Positions 4,409-50,027 of a DNA stretch of 64,000 nt are shown here, one piece after another. Within the stretch, counting starts at the first letter, position 1. Each line of letters begins with the position of its first letter. The notes beneath the pieces are model-generated. The model searched no databases. It had not been told where the DNA came from and worked only from the letters and a program-made list of their open reading frames with translations. The translations under genes were made by a program, and so were the position numbers. The DNA is from Bacteroidia bacterium (GTDB lineage Bacteria; Bacteroidota; Bacteroidia; UKL13-3): the NCBI GenBank assembly GCA_051861545.1, contig JBIMKP010000007.1:5206-69205 (forward strand), written 5' to 3'.

Positions 4409-4796
4409 GGATAGCTATATTTTTACTGTAAGTGATTTTTAGTAAATAGGGTTCATATTTTGATTGAAATTTTCAAAAAGTAGTTTGGTTTTAAATTTCT
4501 CTATTTTACAAAATTTAAGACCCCGATAGGTGGTCTCATGTTTATAGAAAAATGCTTTAGATAGACTTCTCCTCCCATTTCTCTTCAAGGCGGACCTTCG
4601 GTCCGCCTTGAAGAGAAATGGGAGGGACTTTGCATTAAATTTCTTTTTCTATAATCATGTCATCCCTTCTGGATTTTTAAAAACTTGTTCTAGTTCTCGT
4701 TTATCTTTTAGGGTTGATTTTAATGAGTATAATCAAAATAAAATTATTTAAGATTCGCTAAAGGTTTTTTCTAGTATAAAGCCGCTTAATCGTATT
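4409..4796. mobile_element. MITE-like intergenic repeat, copy 1 (~390 bp, non-coding)
   Basis: Shares conserved blocks with the copies at 9545, 33202 and 47346: ttttcaaaaa.tagtttgg, aagaccccgataggtggtctcatgtttatagaaaaatgct, ataatcatgtcatccctt. Contains a perfect 55-bp palindrome at 4571-4625. Confidence 0.7.
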
Positions 4797-33201: not shown

Positions 33202-33598
33202 GAGTATCCGCATTTACCAGCAGTAATTTTTTATAAATCCGGTGCATGTTTTGAGAAATATTTTCAAAAAATAGTTTGGAATAAAATTGCTCTATATAGT
33301 GAAGTTTAAGACCCCGATAGGTGGTCTCATGTTTATAGAAAAATGCTCGAAATGGATTCCCCCAAATCTCTACAAACGCGGACCAAAGGTCCGCGTTTGT
33401 AGAGATTTGGGGTGGTTTTTCTTTACTTTTTTTCTTCTATAATCATGTCATCCCTTCAGGATTTTAAGAATTTCAAGAAAGAACTTGTTCCTGATTTAAA
33501 TTCATGTTTGGGGTTTATTTTGATTTTATTGAGTAAGCATCTTTATTAAAGCTTTGAAGATTCGTAAAACAGATTCTTAGATAAAGAAGCGGATACTC
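33202..33598. mobile_element. MITE-like intergenic repeat, copy 3 (best preserved; 10-bp TIR gagtatccgc / gcggatactc)
   Basis: The TIRs are read directly. The element is flanked by ~20-bp direct repeats atactcatattgttttt(t)tgcg at 33181-33202 and 33593-33613. The internal perfect palindrome is at 33366-33418. Confidence 0.7.
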
Positions 33599-37440: not shown

Positions 37441-37695
37441 GTGGGACAATTATTAAACATTATGGAAATCAAAAATCTTTATCCTAACGAATGGGTTTTG
37501 ATTGGAAATCCTGTAATGGACGACACTAAAATTGACGTTATTTCAGGTGTTCCTATTTATCATAGCAAGGACAAAAAGGAGGTATGCTATATTGGTCGCA
37601 ACAAGACTTCTTCCTACGACAAAATTACCTTAATTTTTACCGGTTCATTCAAGCCGACCAGAAAAATTACAGGTATTTTCAATCGCATTAAATAA
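37441..37695 (+). CDS. Hypothetical 84-aa protein, translationally coupled to the downstream retropepsin-like gene
   Basis: Its stop TAA overlaps the next ATG by one nucleotide (TAATG). Confidence 0.4.
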   Translation: MGQLLNIMEIKNLYPNEWVLIGNPVMDDTKIDVISGVPIYHSKDKKEVCYIGRNKTSSYDKITLIFTGSFKPTRKITGIFNRIK

Positions 37696-38087
37696 TGATT
37701 TTTCCATTCAAAAGAGAACCCGAAAGTGGGCTCCTTATAATTAGCATTGAAATTGATTCAAAATTCGAACTTAAAATGGTATTGGATACTGGAGCAACAA
37801 ACACTACCATTGACAGCAATGCTTTGTATTTATTAGGATATGATCTTAAAGACAGTATTGGGTTAGTGGAAATTGAAACAGCTAATGGAATCATTGAAAC
37901 AGAAGTATTCGAAATTGGTAGTTTTAGTTCTCTTGGTCAAATAAGGGAAAACTTTCAAATTCAGGTTTATGATTTCTTGGCACACGGTATATTTTCCGAC
38001 TATAATGGCCTTATCGGACTGGACTTTTTAGAGGGACAAAAGTTTTGTATTGATTTGAAGTTAAATACAATTACCTTAACAAAATAG
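37695..38087 (+). CDS. Retropepsin-like (clan AA) aspartic protease domain protein
   Basis: Catalytic motif VLDTGATNTTID. 130-aa stand-alone domain. Confidence 0.6.
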   Translation: MIFPFKREPESGLLIISIEIDSKFELKMVLDTGATNTTIDSNALYLLGYDLKDSIGLVEIETANGIIETEVFEIGSFSSLGQIRENFQIQVYDFLAHGIFSDYNGLIGLDFLEGQKFCIDLKLNTITLTK

Positions 38088-43575: not shown

Positions 43576-43839
43576 ATGGCACACAAAAAAGGGGTAGGTA
43601 GTTCCAAAAACGGCCGTGAGTCCCATAGTAAACGTTTAGGTGTAAAAATATTTGGCGGTCAAAGCGTAATTGCTGGTAATATCATCGTTCGTCAAAGAGG
43701 TACCAAACATCATCCAGGTTTAAATGTAGGTATTGGTAAAGATCATACCTTATTTGCTTTAGTTGATGGAAAAGTTGCTTTCAGAAAGAAAGCTAACGAT
43801 CGTTCTTTTGTATCGGTAGTACCGTTTGCAGAAGCGTAA
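43576..43839 (+). CDS. rpmA: 50S ribosomal protein L27
   Basis: N-terminus [24 protein letters not shown]. 87 aa. Confidence 0.9.
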
Positions 43840-43982
43840 TATCAAATTTTAAATGAATAATACTGGGTAAGTTTCTTATCCGGTATTTTTCGTTTATGTG
43901 AGTATACAAAGTTTGAATTAGCAAATTTCTAATTTAGATTTATCTACTTGATAAATCTAATAGATGAAATGCTAAAAATTTT

Positions 43983-44071
43983 GGGGGATTAGCTCATTTG
44001 CTATGATGATTCTATCAGCATTTTGCTAGAGCGTGCTGACGATACTGTCAGCAAGGTGACCGGTTCAAGTG
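43983..44071 (+). pseudogene. Degenerate tRNA-Ala-derived copy A
   Basis: GGGGGATTAGCTCATTTG is identical to the tRNA 5' end. A 25-nt insertion (ctatgatgattctatcagcattttg) sits in the D-loop. The anticodon arm is replaced by hairpin TGCTGAC-GATACT-GTCAGCA. The T-arm is truncated (ggtgaccggttcaagtg). Confidence 0.55.
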
Positions 44072-44083
44072 AAAAAAATAAAA

Positions 44084-44157
44084 GGGGGATTAGCTCATTT
44101 GGCTAGAGCGCTTGCCTGGCAGGCAAGAGGTGACCGGTTCGAATCCGGTATTCTCCA
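44084..44157 (+). tRNA. tRNA-Ala (anticodon GGC)
   Basis: Folded by hand. Acceptor GGGGGAT/ATTCTCC with the G3:U70 Ala identity pair. D-arm GCTC-ATTTGGCTA-GAGC. Anticodon arm CTTGC-CTGGCAG-GCAAG. Variable loop AGGTG. T-arm ACCGG-TTCGAAT-CCGGT. Discriminator A. No encoded CCA. Confidence 0.85.
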
Positions 44158-44168
44158 CTGAATAATAA

Positions 44169-44193
44169 GAAGACGGCTTAGGTCGTCTTTTTT
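44169..44193 (+). terminator. Rho-independent terminator after tRNA-Ala
   Basis: aagacg-gcttaggt-cgtctt followed by a 7-nt T-run. Confidence 0.6.
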
Positions 44194-44198
44194 TGTTT

Positions 44199-44275
44199 TT
44201 GGGATTAGCTCATTTGGATAGAGCGTGCTGACAGTATCGTCAGCAAGGTGACCGGTTTGAATCCGGTATTCTCCA
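44199..44275 (+). pseudogene. Degenerate tRNA-Ala-derived copy C
   Basis: The acceptor 5' strand has mutated to TTGGGAT. D-arm and T-arm are intact. The anticodon arm is replaced by hairpin TGCTGAC-AGTATC-GTCAGCA, the exact reverse complement of the hairpin in copy A. Confidence 0.55.
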
Positions 44276-44314
44276 CTGAATTAAACACGATTATGTTCGT
44301 CTTTTTTGTTTTTA

Positions 44315-44354
44315 GGGATTAGCTTAATTGTGCTGAGGATTCTATCAGCATTTG
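44315..44354 (+). pseudogene. tRNA-derived 5' fragment D
   Basis: gggattagcttaattg followed by hairpin tgctga-ggattcta-tcagca. Rest of the tRNA is absent. Confidence 0.45.
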
Positions 44355-44534
44355 AAAACCACACAGAATTAAATGGTTATATTAAAAATTATCTTTCTTC
44401 AAATTCAAGTAAACAAGTGAGTGTTGAGGTTTTAACTCAGTCGGATGCCGAACAACTATTAGCAAGCATAAAAGAAAAGATTGAGTTACATGAACAAGCA
44501 AAATAACAAAAGCCCGAAATTAATCGGGCTTTTG

Positions 44535-44696
44535 TTATTTTAAGGCTTTTGCTATTAAGCTAATGGCTAGTATTGCAGCTGAGGTTAGCACAATAGCGTT
44601 AACTATCTCAGCTGTTTTGCCATATACTGTAACACAAGTTTGCTTGTTGCACAGTGTAACTTTTTCGCCTTTGGGGTAATTGTATAAATTACTCAT
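44535..44696 (-). CDS. Possible small membrane protein (53 aa)
   Basis: Not in the ORF track. MSNLYNYPKGEKVTLCNKQTCVTVYGKTAEIVNAIVLTSAAILAISLIAKALK. Ends at the palindromic terminator aaaagcccgaaattaatcgggctttt (44508-44533). Confidence 0.25.
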   Translation of the reverse strand: MSNLYNYPKGEKVTLCNKQTCVTVYGKTAEIVNAIVLTSAAILAISLIAKALK

Positions 44697-44762
44697 AAAG
44701 ATAAAAAATTAAATTGTAACAATTCCCTCACTCTTACCCGGAGGGTTCAAGTTTCTGTTGTA

Positions 44763-44930
44763 TTACTCTTTTGTAATACCTTTAAATGGAGTGCCGTCAG
44801 ATTTGCCATCCATAAACTTTCCGTCTGGACCTCTTTTTGTCCAGATTTTAGTTAACGGATTTAAAACTTGAGTACGATCTTTAACAGCACCTTTACGGTG
44901 GCCATCTCCAATTGGCGCATTTTTAGCCAT
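44763..44930 (-). CDS. Possible small basic protein (55 aa)
   Basis: Not in the ORF track. MAKNAPIGDGHRKGAVKDRTQVLNPLTKIWTKRGPDGKFMDGKSDGTPFKGITKE. ATG start. No homology recognised. Confidence 0.3.
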   Translation of the reverse strand: MAKNAPIGDGHRKGAVKDRTQVLNPLTKIWTKRGPDGKFMDGKSDGTPFKGITKE

Positions 44931-45126
44931 AATGTTCTAAAATTTAACTTTACAGGCTGTTTTAAACTGAGCCACCTGTCACCAAGCCAAGAAAAAGACA
45001 TTTTGAATACTACCAGCAATTGTTACATTTGTGTTACCAAACAAAATATGTTAGCATGAGCTTGCAGAATTCGGGGGAGTCTTTTTCGGCTTCCCCTTTT
45101 TATTACACAAATTTAAATCTTTGTTT

Positions 45127-45160
45127 TGGACAAATCAGAAATATTTTTTATATTTGTCCA
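45127..45160. promoter_or_regulatory. 9-bp inverted repeat tggacaaat-N16-atttgtcca overlapping a TAnnTTTG -7 box (tatatttg, 45149-45156) upstream of the XRE-ImmA gene
   Basis: Perfect inverted repeat read in the sequence. An operator overlapping the promoter suggests autorepression by the HTH domain. Confidence 0.4.
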
Positions 45161-45201
45161 TAAGTTTTTCCCATTCCTAAGGCAATCAACTCTTTCACTA
45201 T

Positions 45202-46263
45202 ATGCAATACTTCAGCAGTCGATTAAAAAGCGCGAGGGTAATGAATGGTTTTTCATTACAAGATTTATCTGATAAATTGAAAGGAGAAATTTCTAAACAA
45301 GATTTGAATAGATTAGAATTAGGTTTAAATCAGCCTAATAGTGAAATTTTAGCTAAGCTTTCTTCTGCTTTGAATATTCCTTCTGATTATTTTTTTAGAA
45401 ATGAAACAATCAATCTTCCTTCCGTTGAATTTAGAAAACTAACCAAACTTCCTAAAAAAGACCAAGAAGCTGTTAAAGGAAAAACCATTGATTTTTTAGA
45501 ACGATACGCAGAGCTTGAGAATTTAATGGGTGTATCTCAATCACCAGTATTTAATCATAAAGAGTATGTGATCAATTTTAATAGTCCTGAAGAAATTGAA
45601 AAAGCGGCCAATGTTTTCAGATCTAAATTAAATCTTGGTATAGATCCCATTTATAATCTTATTGAATTGTTAGAAGAAAATGGAGTTAGGGTGTTTTCTA
45701 CAATTGCTTCTCCATCATTTTCTGGAATGTCCACTTGTGTTGCAAATTCACTATTAGTGGTTGTTTTTAATAATAATGAAGAAATACCTTTAGTAAGAAA
45801 ACGATTTACCATTTTGCATGAAATCGCACATTTATTTTTGGATTTGGAGAAATTCGAAGATAAAGTGAAAGAGCGTATTTGTGATTCTTTTGCAGGGGCA
45901 GTGTTGCTTCCCCAAAAGAAGTTATTAGAATATTTTGGTCCCAAAAGAAATAATTTTCTCACTAAAGAATTAATGGCTATAAAATCATATTTCGGAATTT
46001 CAATACCAGCAATTATTTATCGAGCGAATTCAAACCAAATAGTGAGTGACAATTATCTTAAATACTTTATGATTCGGTATAATAAAGAATATAAGGATTT
46101 GGAAAAAAACGGCTATTTAGGGAAGGAAGAGTCTCAAAGGTTTACTCAATTGCTGCTTAGGGCAGTTGCTGAGGAGGTAGTAACTTCTTCAAAAGCTGCA
46201 TCTTTGAATAACCAAAAACTATGGGAGTTTAGAAAGCAATTCATTGATAATATCTCTTATTAA
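45202..46263 (+). CDS. XRE-family HTH fused to ImmA/IrrE-type (M78) zinc metallopeptidase
   Basis: N-terminal HTH (..LKSARVMNGFSLQDLSDKL..). C-terminal HExxH motif ILHEIAHLFLD with downstream conserved E/D. 353 aa. Confidence 0.7.
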   Translation: MQYFSSRLKSARVMNGFSLQDLSDKLKGEISKQDLNRLELGLNQPNSEILAKLSSALNIPSDYFFRNETINLPSVEFRKLTKLPKKDQEAVKGKTIDFLERYAELENLMGVSQSPVFNHKEYVINFNSPEEIEKAANVFRSKLNLGIDPIYNLIELLEENGVRVFSTIASPSFSGMSTCVANSLLVVVFNNNEEIPLVRKRFTILHEIAHLFLDLEKFEDKVKERICDSFAGAVLLPQKKLLEYFGPKRNNFLTKELMAIKSYFGISIPAIIYRANSNQIVSDNYLKYFMIRYNKEYKDLEKNGYLGKEESQRFTQLLLRAVAEEVVTSSKAASLNNQKLWEFRKQFIDNISY

Positions 46264-46298
46264 GTCCTTTTTAATTTCGCCATCGTAATTCTACTCCA

Positions 46299-46799
46299 AT
46301 GCAAAAAATTGCCATTACTGATGCAAATATTTTTATTGATCTAATCGAAACTGAAATTTTCGAATATTTGTTTCAATTCGGAATAAAAGTACATACTACT
46401 TATGAAGTTTTTGACCAATTAAGCCCAAATCAACAAGAAATACTTAAGTCATTTGAGTTAAATGGAGAACTTGTAATTTACTGTCTTTCATATTATGAAT
46501 TAGTTCAATTAGAGAATTTGCAATTTCCAGCAGGTTTAGAGCTTGCTGATAGATCGGTCTATTTTTATGCAAATAATATTCAAGGTTTGGTTTTAAGTGG
46601 AGATAGAAAACTAAAAAAATATTGTGAAAGTAAGCAACTTCGAGTAAATGGGATAATTTGGGTATTTGACCAGATTCATGAATTTGGTCTTATTCAAAAG
46701 GCCGACTTAGTTTTCAAACTGAAATTATTAATGAAAATAAATAAAAGATTACCTGTCGAAGAATGCAATAAAAGGATTCATGCATGGCTTCAGGGCTAA
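46299..46799 (+). CDS. PIN-like nuclease domain protein (DUF4411-like), partner of the XRE-ImmA gene
   Basis: N-terminal IAITDANIFIDL carries the first PIN Asp. Central ..ELAD.. and SGDRKL acidic motifs. 166 aa. Sits 35 nt downstream on the same strand. Confidence 0.5.
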   Translation: MQKIAITDANIFIDLIETEIFEYLFQFGIKVHTTYEVFDQLSPNQQEILKSFELNGELVIYCLSYYELVQLENLQFPAGLELADRSVYFYANNIQGLVLSGDRKLKKYCESKQLRVNGIIWVFDQIHEFGLIQKADLVFKLKLLMKINKRLPVEECNKRIHAWLQG

Positions 46800-46897
46800 A
46801 TAATTTGCGTTTGCTATTTAAATTAAAAAATTGTTATTACTAAAATGAATTCAATTCTAATTAAAATTCTATTGATAAGGAATTTATTATAAGTTTT

Positions 46898-47263
46898 TCA
46901 CCCCTTCCTCAATATCTTCTCCATCTTTTTTCCTTTTGCCAATTCATCAACCAATTTGTCTAAATAACGAACTTTTTGGGTTAATGGATTAGTAATTTCT
47001 TCGACTTTATAACCGCAAATGTTTCCAGTGATTAAATGTGCATTGGGATTGATTATAGCTTTCTCGAAAAACTGCTCAAAATTGATTTTTTCTTCAATGA
47101 ATTGCTCTATTTGATTTTCATTAAATCCACATAACCATTCAATTACTTCATGTAATTCGGCAATTGTTCTTCCTTTTTTCTCCACTTTCGTAACATAATG
47201 AGGGTAAACAGAGCTAAAACTCATTTTTGTAATTTTTTCGTCGTGGTGGCTCGTACTTTTCAT
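46898..47263 (-). CDS. DUF2200-family protein
   Basis: [34 protein letters not shown] matches the conserved DUF2200 N-terminal block. 121 aa. Confidence 0.45.
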
Positions 47264-47345
47264 ATTGGTATTTTATTGAAGAAATTCAAAAATAGAGCTT
47301 CGATTTTCTTAAAATATAAACTTCTTTAAAATATAAATCAATTTT

Positions 47346-47733
47346 CCGCATACTTACCAAGTATAATTTTTTATAAATCCCGTGTTTATTTTGAAAAGTA
47401 TTTTCAAAAAGCAGCTTGATGTTAAATTGCTCTTTTTTATGAAATTTATGACCCCGATAGGTGGTCTCATGTTTATAGAAAAATGCTAAAAATGAATTTC
47501 CCAACACTCTACAAACGCGGACCAAAGGTCCGCGTTTGTAGAGTGTTGGGCTGGTTTTCTTTACTTTTTATTTTCTATAATCATGTCATCCCTTCAGGAT
47601 TTTTAAGCGTTTCTAAAAAAAACATGTTTCTGATTTTAATTTATGTTTTAATGAATATTTTGATTTTTTAGAGTCATTATCGGGTTTAAGGCCTTTGAAA
47701 GTTCTTTTAGGTAAATAAGTGGATATTCGTTAG
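47346..47733. mobile_element. MITE-like intergenic repeat, copy 4
   Basis: Closest relative of copy 3, with long near-identical blocks. Flanked by imperfect direct repeats atataaatcaatttt (47331-47345) and atattaaatcaaatt (47734-47748). Palindrome at 47504-47554. Confidence 0.7.
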
Positions 47734-47831
47734 ATATTAAATCAAATTCATTGAGCAATTTTGACGTTTTATACCAAATCTTTTCCATTTGAAACCTAAT
47801 TCTTCCATAATAAAGCTTTTAAAATTAATCT

Positions 47832-48608
47832 TTGACCATGTTAAAATTTATACATGAACTTTTAGAGCGAAACCCTGAATTGTATTGGTTTGGATTATTT
47901 AATTTTTTAGTTGCTGCAATCTTATTCATTCTTATGCCTTTTTTTCAAATTAAGGTTTTAGGAATACACGCTTTTATTAAACCCATCAAATTTGCATTAT
48001 CAATTGCAATTTATTCTTGGACAATGGCTTGGTATATGTTTTACCTTAAAGACACAAATATCAATTGGATGAATTGGGCAATTATAATTCTACTTGGTTT
48101 TGAAATATTTTACATAGTTTTTCAAGCTGCAAAAGGTCAGTTAAGCCATTTTAATTTAAGTACACCTTTTTATTCAGTTTTGTATTCTTTAATGGCTATG
48201 GCGGCCTCAGGAGTTACTCTTATCACAGCTTATGTTGGCATTTTATTTCTTAAACAAGATAATTCAAACCTGCCCGAATACTACCAAATTGCTTTGCATT
48301 GTGGCATCTGGATATTCGTAATTTTCTCTTTTCAAGGCTTTGCAATGGGCTCAAAACTAACACATACCATCGGGGCAATTGATGGTGGTAAAGGAATCCC
48401 GTTTTTAAACTGGAGTATCAATGCCGGCGACTTAAGAATTGCACATTTTATAGGAATGCATGCCTTGCAAGTCATCCCAATTTTGGCTTATTATTTATTT
48501 AAAAATACTTCTTTAACTATTATTGCATCAGTTATCTATATCTCCTTGGCCATCATAACATGGTATATGGCTGTCAAAGCTAAATCTCCGTTTTACTTTT
48601 TGAATTAA
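47832..48608 (+). CDS. Hypothetical integral membrane protein
   Basis: 258 aa with about six hydrophobic helices. No motif recognised. Confidence 0.4.
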   Translation: MTMLKFIHELLERNPELYWFGLFNFLVAAILFILMPFFQIKVLGIHAFIKPIKFALSIAIYSWTMAWYMFYLKDTNINWMNWAIIILLGFEIFYIVFQAAKGQLSHFNLSTPFYSVLYSLMAMAASGVTLITAYVGILFLKQDNSNLPEYYQIALHCGIWIFVIFSFQGFAMGSKLTHTIGAIDGGKGIPFLNWSINAGDLRIAHFIGMHALQVIPILAYYLFKNTSLTIIASVIYISLAIITWYMAVKAKSPFYFLN

Positions 48609-48617
48609 AAGTAAATT

Positions 48618-50027
48618 TTATAGTAAATCATTAGCCAGATTCGCCAACTCAGATCTTTCTCCTTTTTCTAATGTAATGTGTGCATACATCGGATTGTTTC
48701 GAATTCTGTCGATTAAGTAGGAGAGTCCATTTGATTGAGAATCTAAATAAGGTGTATCAATCTGGTAAATATCGCCAGTAAATACAATTTTAGTACCTTC
48801 TCCTGCTCTTGTAATAATGGTTTTTACTTCAAGTGGAGTTAGGTTTTGAGCTTCATCAACAATAAAAATTATATTCGATAAACTTCTTCCTCTGATATAT
48901 GCCAATGGCGTAACCAATAGTTTTTCTTGGTTAACCATGTCAGTAATTTTCTGGTATTCCTTATCAGTTTCTTTCCATTGATTTTGGATTAGCTTCAAAT
49001 TATCCCAAAGCGGTTCCATATATGGATTGATTTTTGATTTGGCATCTCCTGGTAAAAATCCAATATCTCTATTATTAAGCGGAATGATTGGTCGTGCAAG
49101 GTAAATTTGTCTGTATTTTGCTTTTTGTTCCATTGCAGCGGCTAGAGCCAAAAGCGTTTTTCCTGTTCCTGCAACACCTTGAATAGTTACCAATGATATA
49201 TTTGGATTTAAAACTGCATGCATGGCAAATGATTGTTCTGCATTTCTTGGTTTGATGCCATGTGCAGCAACTTTATTTACTCTTTCTAAGGTTTCATTTT
49301 GTGCATTATAAAAACATAAAACTGAGTTTTTATCATTCTTTAAAATGAAATAATGATTTGCATTGGGTTTAATTTTTAAAGCTAATTCATAGTGAACAAA
49401 ACCTTTCACATATAATTCATCAATAACACTTGCTTTTACTTTTTCGATTGTTGAATTGCCTGTATAAAGTGTATCTACATTTTTAATTTTTCCAGTCTCA
49501 TAATCTTCTGCAACAATTCCAAGTGATTTTCCTTTAAGACGAAGATTAACATCTTTTGTAACAAGAATTACAGGTCGGCCTTGATTTTGATCGCGCATGG
49601 CCATTGCTGCATTTAATATCCTGTGATCAGCTTTTCTTTCACCAAAAATAACCTGCGCATCCATGCTGGCTTTTTCTTGCATAATCACCTTGAAACGACC
49701 TCGAGTAGGACCATTTATCGGAATCCATTCACTTATTATATGTTCACTTGATAGTTTATCTAAATACCGAATGAACTCTCTTGCTTCAAAATTGATGGTA
49801 TCATTTCCTTTTTTGAAATTATCAAGTTCTTCCAAAACTGTTATAGGAATGGCAACATCATGCTCCTGAAAATTCTTGATGGCATTATGGTCGTATAAGA
49901 TAACAGATGTATCTAAAACAAAGATTTTTCTAGGTTCCTTTTCTTTTTTTAGAATAACTTTTTTTGAAGAAGTTTTTTTAGAAGCTGTCTTTTTAACAAC
50001 TTTTTTCATTACAATTTTCTTAGCCAT
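48618..50027 (-). CDS. PhoH-like ATPase with N-terminal PIN domain (PhoH2/YlaK type)
   Basis: PIN region VLDTSVILYDHNAI...ITVLEELD. Walker A GVAGTGKT. 469 aa. Confidence 0.8.
   Translation of the reverse strand: MAKKIVMKKVVKKTASKKTSSKKVILKKEKEPRKIFVLDTSVILYDHNAIKNFQEHDVAIPITVLEELDNFKKGNDTINFEAREFIRYLDKLSSEHIISEWIPINGPTRGRFKVIMQEKASMDAQVIFGERKADHRILNAAMAMRDQNQGRPVILVTKDVNLRLKGKSLGIVAEDYETGKIKNVDTLYTGNSTIEKVKASVIDELYVKGFVHYELALKIKPNANHYFILKNDKNSVLCFYNAQNETLERVNKVAAHGIKPRNAEQSFAMHAVLNPNISLVTIQGVAGTGKTLLALAAAMEQKAKYRQIYLARPIIPLNNRDIGFLPGDAKSKINPYMEPLWDNLKLIQNQWKETDKEYQKITDMVNQEKLLVTPLAYIRGRSLSNIIFIVDEAQNLTPLEVKTIITRAGEGTKIVFTGDIYQIDTPYLDSQSNGLSYLIDRIRNNPMYAHITLEKGERSELANLANDLL

What the first reader, a model, noticed from the sequence alone, without database searches (positions are those of the whole stretch)
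45127..46799. XRE-HTH/ImmA metallopeptidase fusion with downstream PIN-like gene: candidate toxin-antitoxin or abortive-infection module next to the tRNA array
One 353-aa protein combines an XRE HTH with an ImmA/IrrE (COG2856-type) HExxH peptidase. A 166-aa protein with PIN-like acidic motifs (ITDANIFIDL, ELAD, SGDRKL) follows 35 nt downstream. HTH plus COG2856 peptidase paired with a PIN-family nuclease is a computationally predicted but largely uncharacterised type II TA/defence architecture. The genes sit between the tRNA-Ala array and MITE copy 4, an accessory-looking context. A perfect 9-bp inverted repeat overlapping the -7 promoter box (45127-45160) suggests autorepression. In this architecture the nuclease would be released when the peptidase cleaves its own HTH repressor domain, or a partner, after a phage or stress signal.
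Basis: partly seen in the sequence, partly recalled or inferred. Interest (0 to 1): 0.55.

Follow-up and report, generated by a model that had tools for sequence, protein, structure and literature searches.

The report
Self-cleaving repressor-antitoxin with PIN toxin
This is a real, strain-specific two-gene cassette in which a DNA-binding protein with a built-in protease sits ahead of a PIN nuclease. It is a Bacteroidota relative of the toxin-antitoxin/phage-defence type shown experimentally in 2026 for M. tuberculosis VapBC52, so it is a sound but not a new kind of system.

Summary
Gene A (45202-46263, 353 aa) is an XRE-HTH fused to an M78/ImmA-IrrE peptidase. Gene T (46299-46799, 166 aa) lies 35 nt downstream and has a confident PIN fold with its catalytic aspartates intact. 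A perfect 9-bp palindrome overlaps the promoter.

- A and T are adjacent in all 81 other loci examined and share no flanking genes with this window.
- Eight syntenic close relatives lack the cassette, which lies in a 2.5-2.7 kb insert beside tRNA-Ala.
- The palindrome recurs upstream of A elsewhere. Both arms change together between clades, and two recognition-helix residues change with them.
- A has an invariant F77-R78-K79 in its HTH-peptidase linker. CapP cuts CapH at an F|R site, and VapB52 has an FR motif at its proposed ssDNA-triggered self-cleavage site.

The architecture was predicted in 2009 and 2017, overlaps RosmerTA, and was solved for VapBC52 in 2026. It is therefore a new member of a known kind. 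It differs in three ways: the PIN is COG2405/DUF3368-like and not DUF4411, there is no cysteine-switch loop, and there is no GAF domain.

One addition is new. A conserved, unannotated small-gene pair (orf55/orf53) travels with some cassettes, and in other genomes the cassette sits divergent to CBASS, TIR, R-M and ubiquitin-like defence operons. The "tRNA array" is one tRNA plus degenerate copies.

The parts
45202..46263 (+). Gene A, 353 aa. Predicted autorepressor and antitoxin with three parts: an XRE-HTH, then an M78/IrrE-type zinc peptidase with an internal HTH motif, then a C-terminal four-helix domain.
45211..45396 (+). N-terminal XRE helix-turn-helix domain of A (residues 4-65). The recognition helix is about residues 32-40.
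   Evidence: HTH_3 covers 8-64. Five helices in the model. Closest solved relatives are ImmR, DdrO and CapH N-terminal domains. Residues 37/38 co-vary with operator half-site type.
45430..45438 (+). F77-R78-K79, the predicted self-cleavage site in the flexible linker (residues 66-84) between the HTH and the peptidase.
   Evidence: Invariant in 41 close homologues. [F/Y] in 76/76, R in 74/76 and K in 75/76 loci. The linker is the lowest-confidence internal stretch of the model (pLDDT 55 for residues 71-80). CapP cleaves CapH between F82 and R83. VapB52 has an FR motif (F75-R76) as the probable cleavage site at the same junction.
45817..45831 (+). HEIAH zinc-binding and catalytic motif (H206, E207, H210). 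The third zinc ligand, E224, lies in an E-x-x-C227 helix at 45871-45882.
   Evidence: H206, E207, H210, E224 and C227 are present in 76/76 loci. They align to VapB52 HEFVH...EARCN, CapP and IrrE. The 11-13-residue cysteine-switch loop of VapB52 and CapP is absent.
46048..46245 (+). C-terminal helical domain of A (residues 283-348, four helices). It is the candidate toxin-occluding domain.
   Evidence: Secondary structure of the model. Many invariant residues: Y293, N294, F314, Q316, K331, L335, F343, R344. By analogy, the VapB52 CTD has four helices that occlude the VapC52 active site. Homology was not testable.
46299..46799 (+). Gene T, 166 aa. PIN-domain nuclease and predicted toxin/effector, with a C-terminal three-helix extension.
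45127..45160 (.). Palindromic operator: TGGACAAAT, 16 nt, ATTTGTCCA.
   Evidence: Perfect in the window. The core palindrome lies upstream of A in 20/76 other loci against 3/5804 control windows, Fisher p 2e-36. Half-sites change in both arms together between clades. HTH residues 37/38 change with them.
45125..45156 (+). Candidate Bacteroidota-type promoter of the A-T operon: -33 TTTG (45125-45128) and -7 TATATTTG (45149-45156).
   Evidence: Read directly from the sequence. One of three joint-best (10 of 12) sigma-70-like matches in the scan of 43800-47900. The promoter consensus itself is from established knowledge of Bacteroidetes promoters and was not tested.
44763..44930 (-). orf55, a 55-aa basic soluble protein transcribed divergently from A. 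It lies inside the strain-specific insert and is an optional companion of the cassette.
   Evidence: The family has 128 clusters of about 56 aa with no Pfam match or name. Members are 64-89% identical to this copy, and the few that carry a source name include Legionella, Armatimonadota, Butyricicoccus and Elizabethkingia. A homologue lies divergently upstream of A in 12/81 loci. It is co-linear downstream of T in L096-L099. It heads a CD-NTase/TIR-STING operon in E. anophelis.
44535..44696 (-). orf53, a 53-aa protein with a C-x(4,5)-C motif and a C-terminal transmembrane helix. It lies downstream of orf55.
   Evidence: Homologues follow orf55 homologues in 7/81 loci and in L096 and L100. A terminator-like hairpin lies at 44542-44499 on the minus strand.
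44201..46892 (.). Strain-specific insert carrying orf53, orf55, A and T. It also holds one or two tRNA-like repeat copies at its left edge.
   Evidence: Eight syntenic relatives with identical L27 go from rpmA and tRNA-Ala straight to DUF2200. Homology stops at about 44200-44353 and resumes at 46893. GTTTTT is present at both edges.
45073..45096 (+). Terminator-like hairpin followed by a T-run, just upstream of the A promoter. It may insulate the promoter from read-through.
   Evidence: Terminator scan: 9 pairs, 6 of them G-C. Its function is inferred.

Best explanation
The locus is a mobile toxin-antitoxin/abortive-infection cassette of the VapBC52 (Rosmer-like) type.

Gene T encodes a PIN-domain nuclease, the effector. 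Gene A encodes a three-part protein: an XRE-HTH, a flexible linker carrying F77-R78-K79, an M78 zinc peptidase, and a C-terminal four-helix domain.

In the resting state, A binds the palindrome TGGACAAAT-N16-ATTTGTCCA, which overlaps the -33 and -7 promoter elements, and represses the A-T operon. It probably also holds T inactive by direct binding.

On a stress or infection signal, most likely single-stranded DNA, the peptidase cuts A's own linker at F77|R78. That detaches the HTH. The promoter is derepressed, T is released, and T cuts RNA, most likely tRNA, which arrests the infected cell.

Shown here: the domain content, the PIN fold with an intact catalytic set, strict A-T pairing, cassette mobility, operator conservation and co-variation, and conservation of the FRK, HExxH and Glu residues. 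Inferred by analogy: direct neutralisation, the ssDNA trigger, self-cleavage, the RNA target and phage defence.
For: - Domains and fold.
- Catalytic residues in T: D8, D14 and D84 in 76/76 loci, D102 in 75/76. In A: H206, E207, H210 and E224 in 76/76.
- FRK motif invariant in the low-confidence linker. CapP cleaves CapH at F82|R83. VapB52 has an FR motif (F75-R76) as the probable site of its ssDNA-triggered self-cleavage, which releases the N-terminal domain.
- A is immediately upstream of T in 81/81 other loci. Mirror-tree correlation is r = 0.90.
- No flanking gene is shared with other loci. The cassette is absent from 8/8 syntenic relatives.
- Operator: 20/76 upstream regions against 3/5804 controls, p 2e-36. 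Clade-specific half-sites change in both arms. They track recognition-helix residues: R37/L38 with GGACAA, K37/Y38 with TGACAA.
- The upstream neighbours in other genomes are enriched for defence genes: CBASS, TIR, type I R-M, ThiF/E2.
- VapBC52 provides experimental precedent. It forms a 1:2 complex in which the NTD binds the toxin and the CTD occludes its active site. ssDNA induces self-cleavage, the toxin cleaves tRNA, and the system defends against phage.
Against: - Nothing was tested experimentally for this cassette, and no A-T complex could be modelled here.
- A is only remotely similar to VapB52 (profile E 0.003, peptidase core only).
- A lacks the cysteine-switch loop that is proposed to couple ssDNA binding to activation in CapP and VapB52.
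- A lacks the GAF domain that forms half of the ssDNA groove in CapP and IrrE. VapB52's described domains do not include a GAF domain either, yet it responds to ssDNA.
- T is not a DUF4411 protein and shows no sequence match to VapC52.
- T matches no PADLOC RmrT model.
- The second PIN acidic residue, E36, is conserved in the close family. It reads as E in only 32/76 of the broader set, which may be an alignment artefact.
- Operator and HTH co-variation is confounded with phylogeny.
- A perfect palindrome was found in only about a third of loci.
Confidence: 0.68

Rival explanations
1. A is mainly a fused CapH-CapP-type transcriptional switch that responds to DNA damage. It does not act as a protein-level antitoxin. 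It represses a bidirectional control region. Its self-cleavage turns on both the PIN gene and the divergent cargo, which is orf55-orf53 here and CBASS, TIR, R-M or ubiquitin-like operons elsewhere. T is controlled only through its expression level.
For: - A matches both capH and capP models, and CapP is its best structural match.
- Lau et al. report 15 CapH-CapP fusions. They also describe a DISARM operon with a vapC-like gene plus a CapH-CapP fusion upstream on the opposite strand.
- Defence genes are enriched only on the divergent, upstream side.
- In L094 the pair is divergent to a 57-aa ORF followed by SAVED and CD-NTase/E2.
- orf55 homologues head SAVED, TIR, HsdR, LRAT and ThiF operons.
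Against: - A and T are co-transcribed, so derepression raises both. This gives no obvious way to keep a constitutively active nuclease harmless without direct inhibition.
- A keeps a highly conserved C-terminal domain that CapH and CapP lack. It matches the position of the toxin-occluding CTD of VapB52.
- RmrA-type proteins neutralise toxins in trans.
- Most loci (about 65 of 81) have no orf55. Only about 24 of the 139 scanned upstream neighbours hit one of the defence families counted in the table, and some loci contribute two of those proteins.
- This reading does not exclude the best explanation. A could do both.
Confidence: 0.2
2. The pair is a purely selfish addiction module. It stabilises itself or the adjacent variable region, and has no role in phage defence or stress sensing.
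For: - The cassette is small and mobile, moves between unrelated genomic contexts and is inherited as a unit.
- In this window it has no recognisable defence neighbours.
Against: - The peptidase and the FRK cleavage motif are strictly conserved, which argues for a signal-responsive switch.
- It recurs next to CBASS, R-M, TIR and ubiquitin-like systems in other genomes.
- Rosmer systems and VapBC52 protect against phages.
Confidence: 0.08
3. The genes are a remnant of an ImmR/ImmA-type immunity module from an integrative element or prophage, and the PIN gene is unrelated cargo.
For: - A's HTH is most similar in sequence to ICEBs1 ImmR.
- phrog_2439 matches A at E 1.5e-57.
- The insert lies next to a tRNA gene with tRNA-like repeats.
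Against: - The 2.5-2.7 kb insert holds no integrase, no recombinase and no other phage or ICE gene.
- T has no PHROG match.
- A-T pairing is invariant in 81/81 loci, so T is not incidental cargo.
- Integrase genes appear next to only 2 of the 139 downstream neighbours scanned.
Confidence: 0.03

Closest known systems
VapBC52 (Rv2515c/Rv2514c) of Mycobacterium tuberculosis (Singh et al., NAR 2026, PMC13273310; PDB 9vzy)
   Same: - The antitoxin has the same order of parts: an N-terminal XRE-HTH, a linker with an FR motif, an HExxH M78/IrrE peptidase with an internal HTH motif, and a C-terminal four-helix domain.
- A single-domain PIN protein with a C-terminal helical extension is encoded beside it.
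- The E-x-x-C helix that carries the third zinc ligand is shared.
   Different: - Sequence similarity is very remote (profile E 0.003, peptidase core only).
- A is 353 aa against 415 aa and lacks the cysteine-switch loop with C229.
- T is COG2405/DUF3368-like, whereas VapC52 is compared with DUF4411 proteins. T shows no sequence match to VapC52.
- The host phylum is Bacteroidota, not Actinomycetota.
- Function is untested here.
RosmerTA (RmrT/RmrA; Millman et al. 2022; Ernits et al. 2023)
   Same: - A matches 14 PADLOC RmrA models over its full length, the best at E 1.6e-41.
- Both are two-gene TA-like modules with a Zn-peptidase-HTH antitoxin.
- NetFlax already noted that this antitoxin node associates with PIN-like domains.
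   Different: - T matches no RmrT model, so PADLOC would be expected not to call a Rosmer system here.
- The characterised Rosmer toxins are of unknown function or depolarise membranes. They are not PIN nucleases.
CapH/CapP regulators of CBASS and other immune operons (Lau et al. 2022; 2026 CapP mechanism preprint)
   Same: - Both combine an HTH repressor with an M78 peptidase and an F|R cleavage site.
- In other genomes the A-T cassette lies upstream of, and divergent to, CBASS and other defence operons.
   Different: - A is a single fused protein. Such fusions are known but have not been studied.
- A has no GAF domain and no cysteine switch.
- A is always followed by its own PIN gene.
- In this window the divergent partner is only two small ORFs.
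Predicted three-component HTH + DUF955(COG2856) + PIN-like systems (Makarova et al. 2009; Matelska et al. 2017)
   Same: - This is exactly the architecture they predicted, including COG2405/DUF3368 as one of the PIN-like partners.
- They also proposed that the protease cuts the HTH encoded in the same gene.
   Different: Those were neighbourhood predictions, made without operator, cleavage-site or population evidence. This Bacteroidota family of about 165-aa proteins falls below Pfam thresholds for DUF3368 and PIN when scanned directly.
ImmR/ImmA (ICEBs1) and DdrO/IrrE (Deinococcus)
   Same: Both are XRE repressors cleaved by an M78 metallopeptidase in response to DNA damage. A's HTH is closest to ImmR and DdrO, and its peptidase is close to IrrE/PprI.
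   Different: Those systems use two separate proteins, control mobile-element or repair regulons, and have no dedicated toxin. There is no ICE or prophage context here.

Membership tests
VapBC52-type TA (XRE-M78-CTD antitoxin + PIN toxin) | N-terminal XRE-type HTH domain on the antitoxin | tested here: met
VapBC52-type TA (XRE-M78-CTD antitoxin + PIN toxin) | Conserved FR motif at the junction of the HTH and peptidase domains (proposed self-cleavage site) | tested here: met
   F77-R78-K79 is invariant in 41 homologues. [F/Y]-R-K is present in at least 74/76 loci. It lies in the low-pLDDT linker. For comparison: VapB52 F75-R76 and CapH F82|R83.
VapBC52-type TA (XRE-M78-CTD antitoxin + PIN toxin) | HExxH plus a downstream Glu zinc site of the IrrE/M78 peptidase | tested here: met
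   H206, E207, H210 and E224 are present in 76/76 loci. They align to VapB52, CapP and IrrE.
VapBC52-type TA (XRE-M78-CTD antitoxin + PIN toxin) | Cysteine-switch loop between HExxH and the Glu ligand | tested here: not met
   A has an 11-13-residue deletion where VapB52 (GLC...) and CapP (FQC...) carry the loop. The invariant C227 lies on the Glu helix, as it does in IrrE, which has no switch.
VapBC52-type TA (XRE-M78-CTD antitoxin + PIN toxin) | C-terminal four-helix domain that occludes the toxin active site | tested here: inconclusive
   Four conserved helices at 283-348 occupy the equivalent position. Neither homology to the VapB52 CTD nor contact with T could be tested, because 9vzy is not in the fold libraries.
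VapBC52-type TA (XRE-M78-CTD antitoxin + PIN toxin) | Adjacent PIN toxin with an intact acidic active site | tested here: met
VapBC52-type TA (XRE-M78-CTD antitoxin + PIN toxin) | Toxin belongs to the DUF4411 PIN family or resembles VapC52 in sequence | tested here: not met
   No DUF4411 hit for T or among the families most matched by its relatives. The T profile finds no VapC52 chain in the PDB sequence set.
VapBC52-type TA (XRE-M78-CTD antitoxin + PIN toxin) | ssDNA-triggered self-cleavage, a 1:2 complex, toxicity with neutralisation, and tRNA cleavage | not testable with these tools
   These need biochemistry and genetics.
RosmerTA | RmrA: an antitoxin combining HTH and a Zn-peptidase | tested here: met
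   14 PADLOC RmrA models match at E 1.6e-41 to 6e-19, over the full length.
RosmerTA | A recognised RmrT toxin partner | tested here: not met
   T matches no RmrT model at E<=1. Its only PADLOC hit is PDC-S70 at E 0.0018. PDC-S70 is a PIN-domain defence candidate.
CapH/CapP regulator | CapP domain set: peptidase, HTH and a C-terminal GAF domain | tested here: not met
CapH/CapP regulator | Encoded upstream of, and on the opposite strand to, an immune operon | tested here: inconclusive
   In this window the divergent unit is only orf55-orf53. In other loci, CBASS, TIR, R-M and ThiF/E2 genes lie on the divergent side.
PIN domain, COG2405/DUF3368 group | PIN fold with four conserved acidic residues | tested here: met
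   The best structural match, 2mdt, is the COG2405 reference structure in Matelska 2017.
PIN domain, COG2405/DUF3368 group | Pfam PF11848 match above threshold | tested here: inconclusive
   Direct hmmscan of T gives no PF11848 hit at E<=1. Only 7/38 relatives hit it weakly. Precomputed tags list PF11848 for nearly all relatives.
ImmR/ImmA immunity module of an ICE or prophage | Embedded in an integrative element with integrase and excision or lysis genes under its control | tested here: not met
   The insert at 44201-46892 holds only orf53, orf55, A and T. The neighbouring genes scanned show no integrase or phage-gene matches.

The most novel reading that the evidence does not exclude
The 2.5-kb insert may be a four-gene unit, and not merely a TA pair. 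In this reading the fused CapH-CapP-like sensor/repressor A controls its own PIN effector and also a divergent pair of small proteins. These are orf55 (about 56 aa, unannotated, 64-89% identical to this copy across its 128-cluster family) and orf53 (about 50 aa, a single-pass membrane protein with a Cys motif).

In other genomes the same A-T(+orf55) unit would then act as a portable, damage-sensing controller placed at the head of diverse immune operons: CBASS, TIR, type I R-M and ubiquitin-like systems. That would make orf55/orf53 a previously unrecognised conserved component of M78-peptidase-regulated defence regulons. It would also give the PIN protein a role coupled to the regulator, beyond that of a plain toxin.
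Probability: 0.25. Interest if true: 0.6.

Novelty: new member of a known kind. Interest (0 to 1): 0.36.

Why it matters
If the mechanism holds, it extends the VapBC52/CapP logic to a widespread Bacteroidota family. In that logic a repressor-antitoxin cuts off its own DNA-binding domain when it senses damage or infection. The T family here has about 2,900 clusters at 50% identity.

This version has neither the cysteine switch nor a GAF domain. It could therefore help show which parts of the sensor are really needed for activation.

The comparative data also give ready-made experimental handles: a defined operator, a predicted cleavage site, natural strains with and without the cassette, and clade-specific pairs of operator and recognition helix.

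The recurring placement next to CBASS, R-M, TIR and ubiquitin-like operons, together with the conserved unannotated small-gene pair, points to a modular 'controller plus cargo' organisation of defence islands in Bacteroidota that has not been described.

Tried and rejected
- **afdb50 fold search.** The library was not installed.
- **Full-length comparison of A with VapB52.** Both fold libraries predate or omit 9vzy. Only a profile-sequence alignment of the peptidase core was possible.
- **Lau et al. EMBO J. version.** It is not held, so I used the bioRxiv version.
- **'tRNA array'.** Rejected. ARAGORN and Rfam find one tRNA, and the other copies do not score as tRNA at E<=1.
- **C227 as the cysteine switch.** Rejected. 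It sits on the Glu-ligand helix and aligns with the Cys of IrrE/PprI ETLCN and VapB52 EARCN.
- **Palindrome as a by-product of promoter motifs.** Considered, because TTTG is part of the -7 box and L096 has symmetric divergent -7 boxes. Rejected as the sole cause for three reasons. The arms extend beyond the consensus. The palindrome persists in the few loci whose records are labelled as other phyla (L056, L057, L074, L075). It is almost absent from 5,804 control windows.
- **Target-site duplication or integrase signature for the insert.** Only a 6-nt GTTTTT lies at both edges, which is too weak to interpret.
- **Base composition.** The insert is not distinct from its flanks.
- **orf55 as DUF2188 or DUF3892** (small proteins linked to CapP-like operons). 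No Pfam match was found.
- **Second operator before orf55 in the window.** No palindrome of 7 nt or more was found apart from the main one.
Full report
**What is in the sequence.**
Two same-strand ORFs occupy the interval. A runs from 45202 to 46263 and encodes 353 aa. T runs from 46299 to 46799 and encodes 166 aa, starting 35 nt after A's stop.

A scores above Pfam's cut-offs for HTH_3 (residues 8-64) and Peptidase_M78 (193-275). It carries HEIAH at residues 206-210.

Its arms are TGGACAAAT (45127-45135) and ATTTGTCCA (45152-45160), with a 16-nt spacer. The right arm overlaps a Bacteroidota-type -7 box, TATATTTG (45149-45156), and a TTTG lies at 45125-45128. The same site is one of three joint-best (10 of 12) promoter-like matches in the region.

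Homologue alignments begin at residue 1, so the 353-aa start is correct. A public gene call that starts at M14 would remove HTH helix 1.

Two context statements are off. There is one tRNA-Ala(GGC), at 44084-44158, flanked by degenerate tRNA-like repeats that Rfam does not score as tRNA. The MITE-like repeat at 47354-47603 lies beyond the DUF2200 gene.

**The downstream protein is a PIN nuclease.**
T has no direct match in Pfam, NCBIfam or PHROGs. It does belong to a family of single-domain proteins of about 165 aa: 64 clusters by word-indexed search and 2,903 clusters at 50% identity by profile search.

The canonical acidic residues sit where a PIN fold needs them. These are D8 after strand 1, E36 after strand 2, D84 at a helix N-terminus and D102 after strand 4. 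D8, D14 and D84 are present in 76 of 76 loci and D102 in 75 of 76.

At sequence level, 17 of 38 relatives weakly hit Pfam PIN and 7 of 38 hit DUF3368. Precomputed tags list PF11848. In Matelska's classification, 2mdt is the reference structure of the COG2405/DUF3368 group. T is therefore COG2405-like, not DUF4411.

**The upstream protein.**
PADLOC matches A over its full length to 14 RmrA (Rosmer antitoxin) models, the best at E 1.6e-41. It also matches capP and capH.

The AlphaFold model (pLDDT 90.1) shows these parts:
- a five-helix HTH at residues 4-65;
- a low-confidence linker at 66-84;
- a long helix at 85-109;
- the peptidase core with its internal HTH motif;
- a four-helix C-terminal domain at 283-348.

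A profile search of PDB sequences finds 9vzy_A. I identify this chain as VapB52 because the spacing of HEFVH, GLC and SLE matches the published H216/H220/C229/E245.

That alignment shows three things. First, E224 is the third zinc ligand. Second, the invariant C227 belongs to a family-wide E-x-x-C-(N/D) helix also seen in IrrE and VapB52, so it is not a switch residue. Third, A lacks the 11-13-residue cysteine-switch loop of VapB52 and CapP. A also has no GAF domain.

**A predicted cleavage site.**
F77-R78-K79 is invariant in 41 close homologues. [F/Y]-R-K is kept in at least 74 of 76 loci. It lies in the flexible linker.

CapP cuts CapH between F82 and R83, and an R83A mutant is not cut. VapB52 has a conserved FR motif (F75-R76) at the same junction. 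It cleaves off its N-terminal domain when ssDNA is added.

**The pair is a portable cassette and is accessory here.**
A scan of reference genomes returned 80 loci, mostly Bacteroidota, with a few whose records are labelled as other phyla. With Flavihumibacter fluvii, that makes 81 loci other than this one.

In all 81, an A homologue lies directly upstream of the T homologue on the same strand, usually 2-67 nt away. A few copies look frameshifted. Pairwise identities of A and T correlate at r = 0.90. No other gene from 34-58 kb of this window recurs in any of those loci.

Eight contigs from close relatives have an identical L27 and the same gene order from the OmpA-like gene to alaS. All of them run from rpmA and tRNA-Ala straight to DUF2200, with no A or T. 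Homology to the window stops at about 44200-44353 and resumes at 46893. This defines a 2.5-2.7 kb strain-specific insert.

**The palindrome behaves like an operator.**
The core palindrome T[GT][GA]ACAA-N12-24-TTGT[CT][CA][CA] occurs within 130 nt upstream of A in 20 of 76 loci. It occurs in 3 of 5,804 control windows from the same loci (Fisher p about 2e-36).

The half-site differs between clades while both arms stay complementary. The forms are TGGACAAA/TTTGTCCA, GTTGACAAA/TTTGTCAAC and TTACAAAT/ATTTGTAA.

Only three of the first 69 residues of A separate the GGACAA and TGACAA groups. Two of them, residues 37 and 38, lie in the recognition helix: R-L against K-Y. Phylogeny confounds this comparison.

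TTTG is also part of the -7 box, so promoter motifs could contribute to the symmetry. However, the arms extend past the promoter consensus. The palindrome also persists in the few loci whose records are labelled as other phyla (L056, L057, L074, L075).

**What surrounds the cassette elsewhere.**
I scanned the two nearest ORFs on each side of the cassette in the other loci, 139 proteins per side.

On the upstream, divergent side the most frequent families were defence genes:
- CBASS parts: SMODS 6, DncV-like 4, Cap15 3, SAVED 2;
- ubiquitin-like parts: ThiF 6, Prok-E2 2, multi-ubiquitin 2;
- type I R-M parts: four families with 4-5 hits each;
- LRAT 7 and HNH 2.

The downstream side showed no such pattern.

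In L094 the pair is divergent to a 57-aa ORF followed by SAVED and CD-NTase/E2, with Mrr, ApeA, Macro, ThiF and E2 genes nearby. Lau et al. reported the same arrangement for CapH/CapP. They also noted a DISARM operon preceded by a vapC-like gene plus a CapH-CapP fusion.

**An unexpected companion.**
The insert also carries two small minus-strand ORFs, orf55 (44763-44930) and orf53 (44535-44696).

orf55 belongs to an unannotated family of about 56 aa with 128 clusters. Members are 64-89% identical to this copy. The few that carry a source name include Legionella, Armatimonadota, Butyricicoccus and Elizabethkingia. orf53 has a C-x(4,5)-C motif and a C-terminal membrane helix.

orf55 homologues lie divergently upstream of A in 12 of 81 loci, and orf53 homologues in 7. 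In L096-L099 the same four genes are co-linear, in the order A, T, orf56, orf53. In Elizabethkingia anophelis the small pair heads a CD-NTase/TIR-STING operon, divergent from a standalone M78 operon. Elsewhere orf55 precedes SAVED, ThsB-like TIR, HsdR, LRAT or DUF6791-ThiF genes.

One Armatimonadota copy has no M78 gene within 5 kb. The function of the pair is unknown.

**Comparison with what is known.**
- HTH-COG2856 fusions next to PIN or RelE toxins were predicted as a three-component TA type in 2009.
- Matelska et al. 2017 listed COG2405/DUF3368 among the PIN partners and proposed self-cleavage of the HTH.
- Millman et al. named the Zn-peptidase antitoxin systems RosmerTA.
- Ernits et al. 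noted the association of the ImmA/Rosmer node with PIN-like domains.
- In June 2026 VapBC52 was characterised. It forms a 1:2 complex in which the NTD binds the toxin dimer and the CTD blocks the active site. ssDNA induces self-cleavage, the toxin cleaves tRNA, and the system protects M. smegmatis against phage.

I found no experimental work on a COG2405-like partner.

**Verdict.**
The locus is best filed as a new Bacteroidota member of the VapBC52/Rosmer-like class.

It meets the membership tests for the HTH, the FR motif, the zinc site and the adjacent PIN. It fails the tests for the cysteine switch, the DUF4411 toxin family and an RmrT match. The CTD test is inconclusive.

A rival view holds that A is mainly a CapH-CapP-type transcriptional controller of divergent cargo. 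This is compatible with the best explanation and gets about 0.2.

Interest is modest at 0.36. The mechanism is now precedented. The switchless and GAF-less sensor, the co-varying operator, and the controller-plus-cargo pattern with a conserved unannotated small-gene pair are worth a specialist's attention.

Noticed in passing
window 43979-44065, 44195-44277, 44309-44353 (around tRNA-Ala at 44084-44158); also L084-L091: Degenerate tRNA-Ala-like repeats flank the one real tRNA-Ala(GGC). They keep the acceptor, D and T arms, but the anticodon arm is replaced by GCTGAC-loop-GTCAGC with a 6- or 8-nt loop, and one copy has an insertion in the D region. Copy number varies between close relatives, and L090 has the most. 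Neither ARAGORN nor Rfam calls them tRNAs. The region appears to be a recombination or insertion hot spot.
   Followed up: partly
window 4423-4677, 33214-33465, 47354-47603: A MITE-like repeat family of about 250 nt, with three copies found. Its centre is a long G+C-rich hairpin (47502-47548, 20 pairs). The 33-nt core is identical at 33370 and 47509. The copy at 47354-47603 sits where relatives L086, L087 and L090 carry a DUF1801 gene between DUF2200 and the 256-aa membrane protein.
   Followed up: partly
window 37441-38087 (84-aa ORF plus 130-aa ORF); compare L084-L091: There is a second variable slot between smpB and the OmpA-like gene. This strain and some relatives carry an 84-aa ORF plus a retropepsin-like aspartic protease (Asp_protease_2/gag-asp_proteas). 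Other relatives carry a 70-aa ORF plus a ParE toxin, or a 70-aa plus a 55-aa ORF. L090 has nothing there.
   Followed up: no
window 44535-44930 (minus strand); L096-L101: The orf55/orf53 small-gene pair consists of a soluble protein of about 56 aa that is very highly conserved (64-89% identical to this copy across its 128-cluster family) and a membrane protein of about 50 aa with a Cys motif. Neither has any annotation. The pair recurs beside M78-peptidase regulators and at the head of CBASS, TIR, R-M and ubiquitin-like operons.
   Followed up: partly
window 45202-45240; L002 8943: The public gene call for A starts at M14 (340 aa), and many homologues are likewise called at 337-340 aa. Alignments show the conserved N-terminus MxxFxxRLKxARxMNG, so these calls truncate the first HTH helix.
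   Followed up: yes
window 46898-47263 (minus strand); L084, L085, L088, L089, L091: The DUF2200 gene next to the cassette is full length (121 aa) here and in L086, L087 and L090. In five of the eight relatives it is truncated to 73 aa, so this intergenic neighbourhood is unstable in the lineage.
   Followed up: no
window 48618-50027 (minus strand): A PhoH-like ATPase with an N-terminal PIN_4 domain (469 aa) lies 1.8 kb downstream. It is conserved in all syntenic relatives, although truncated to 259 aa in L088. It is therefore a core gene unrelated to the cassette, despite being a second PIN protein nearby.
   Followed up: partly
L096 4948-4981: Where orf56 lies downstream of T, a second and different palindrome (TGAACAA-N20-TTGTTCA) sits just upstream of orf56, after a terminator-like hairpin that follows T. 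It may be a separate control site for the small-gene pair.
   Followed up: no
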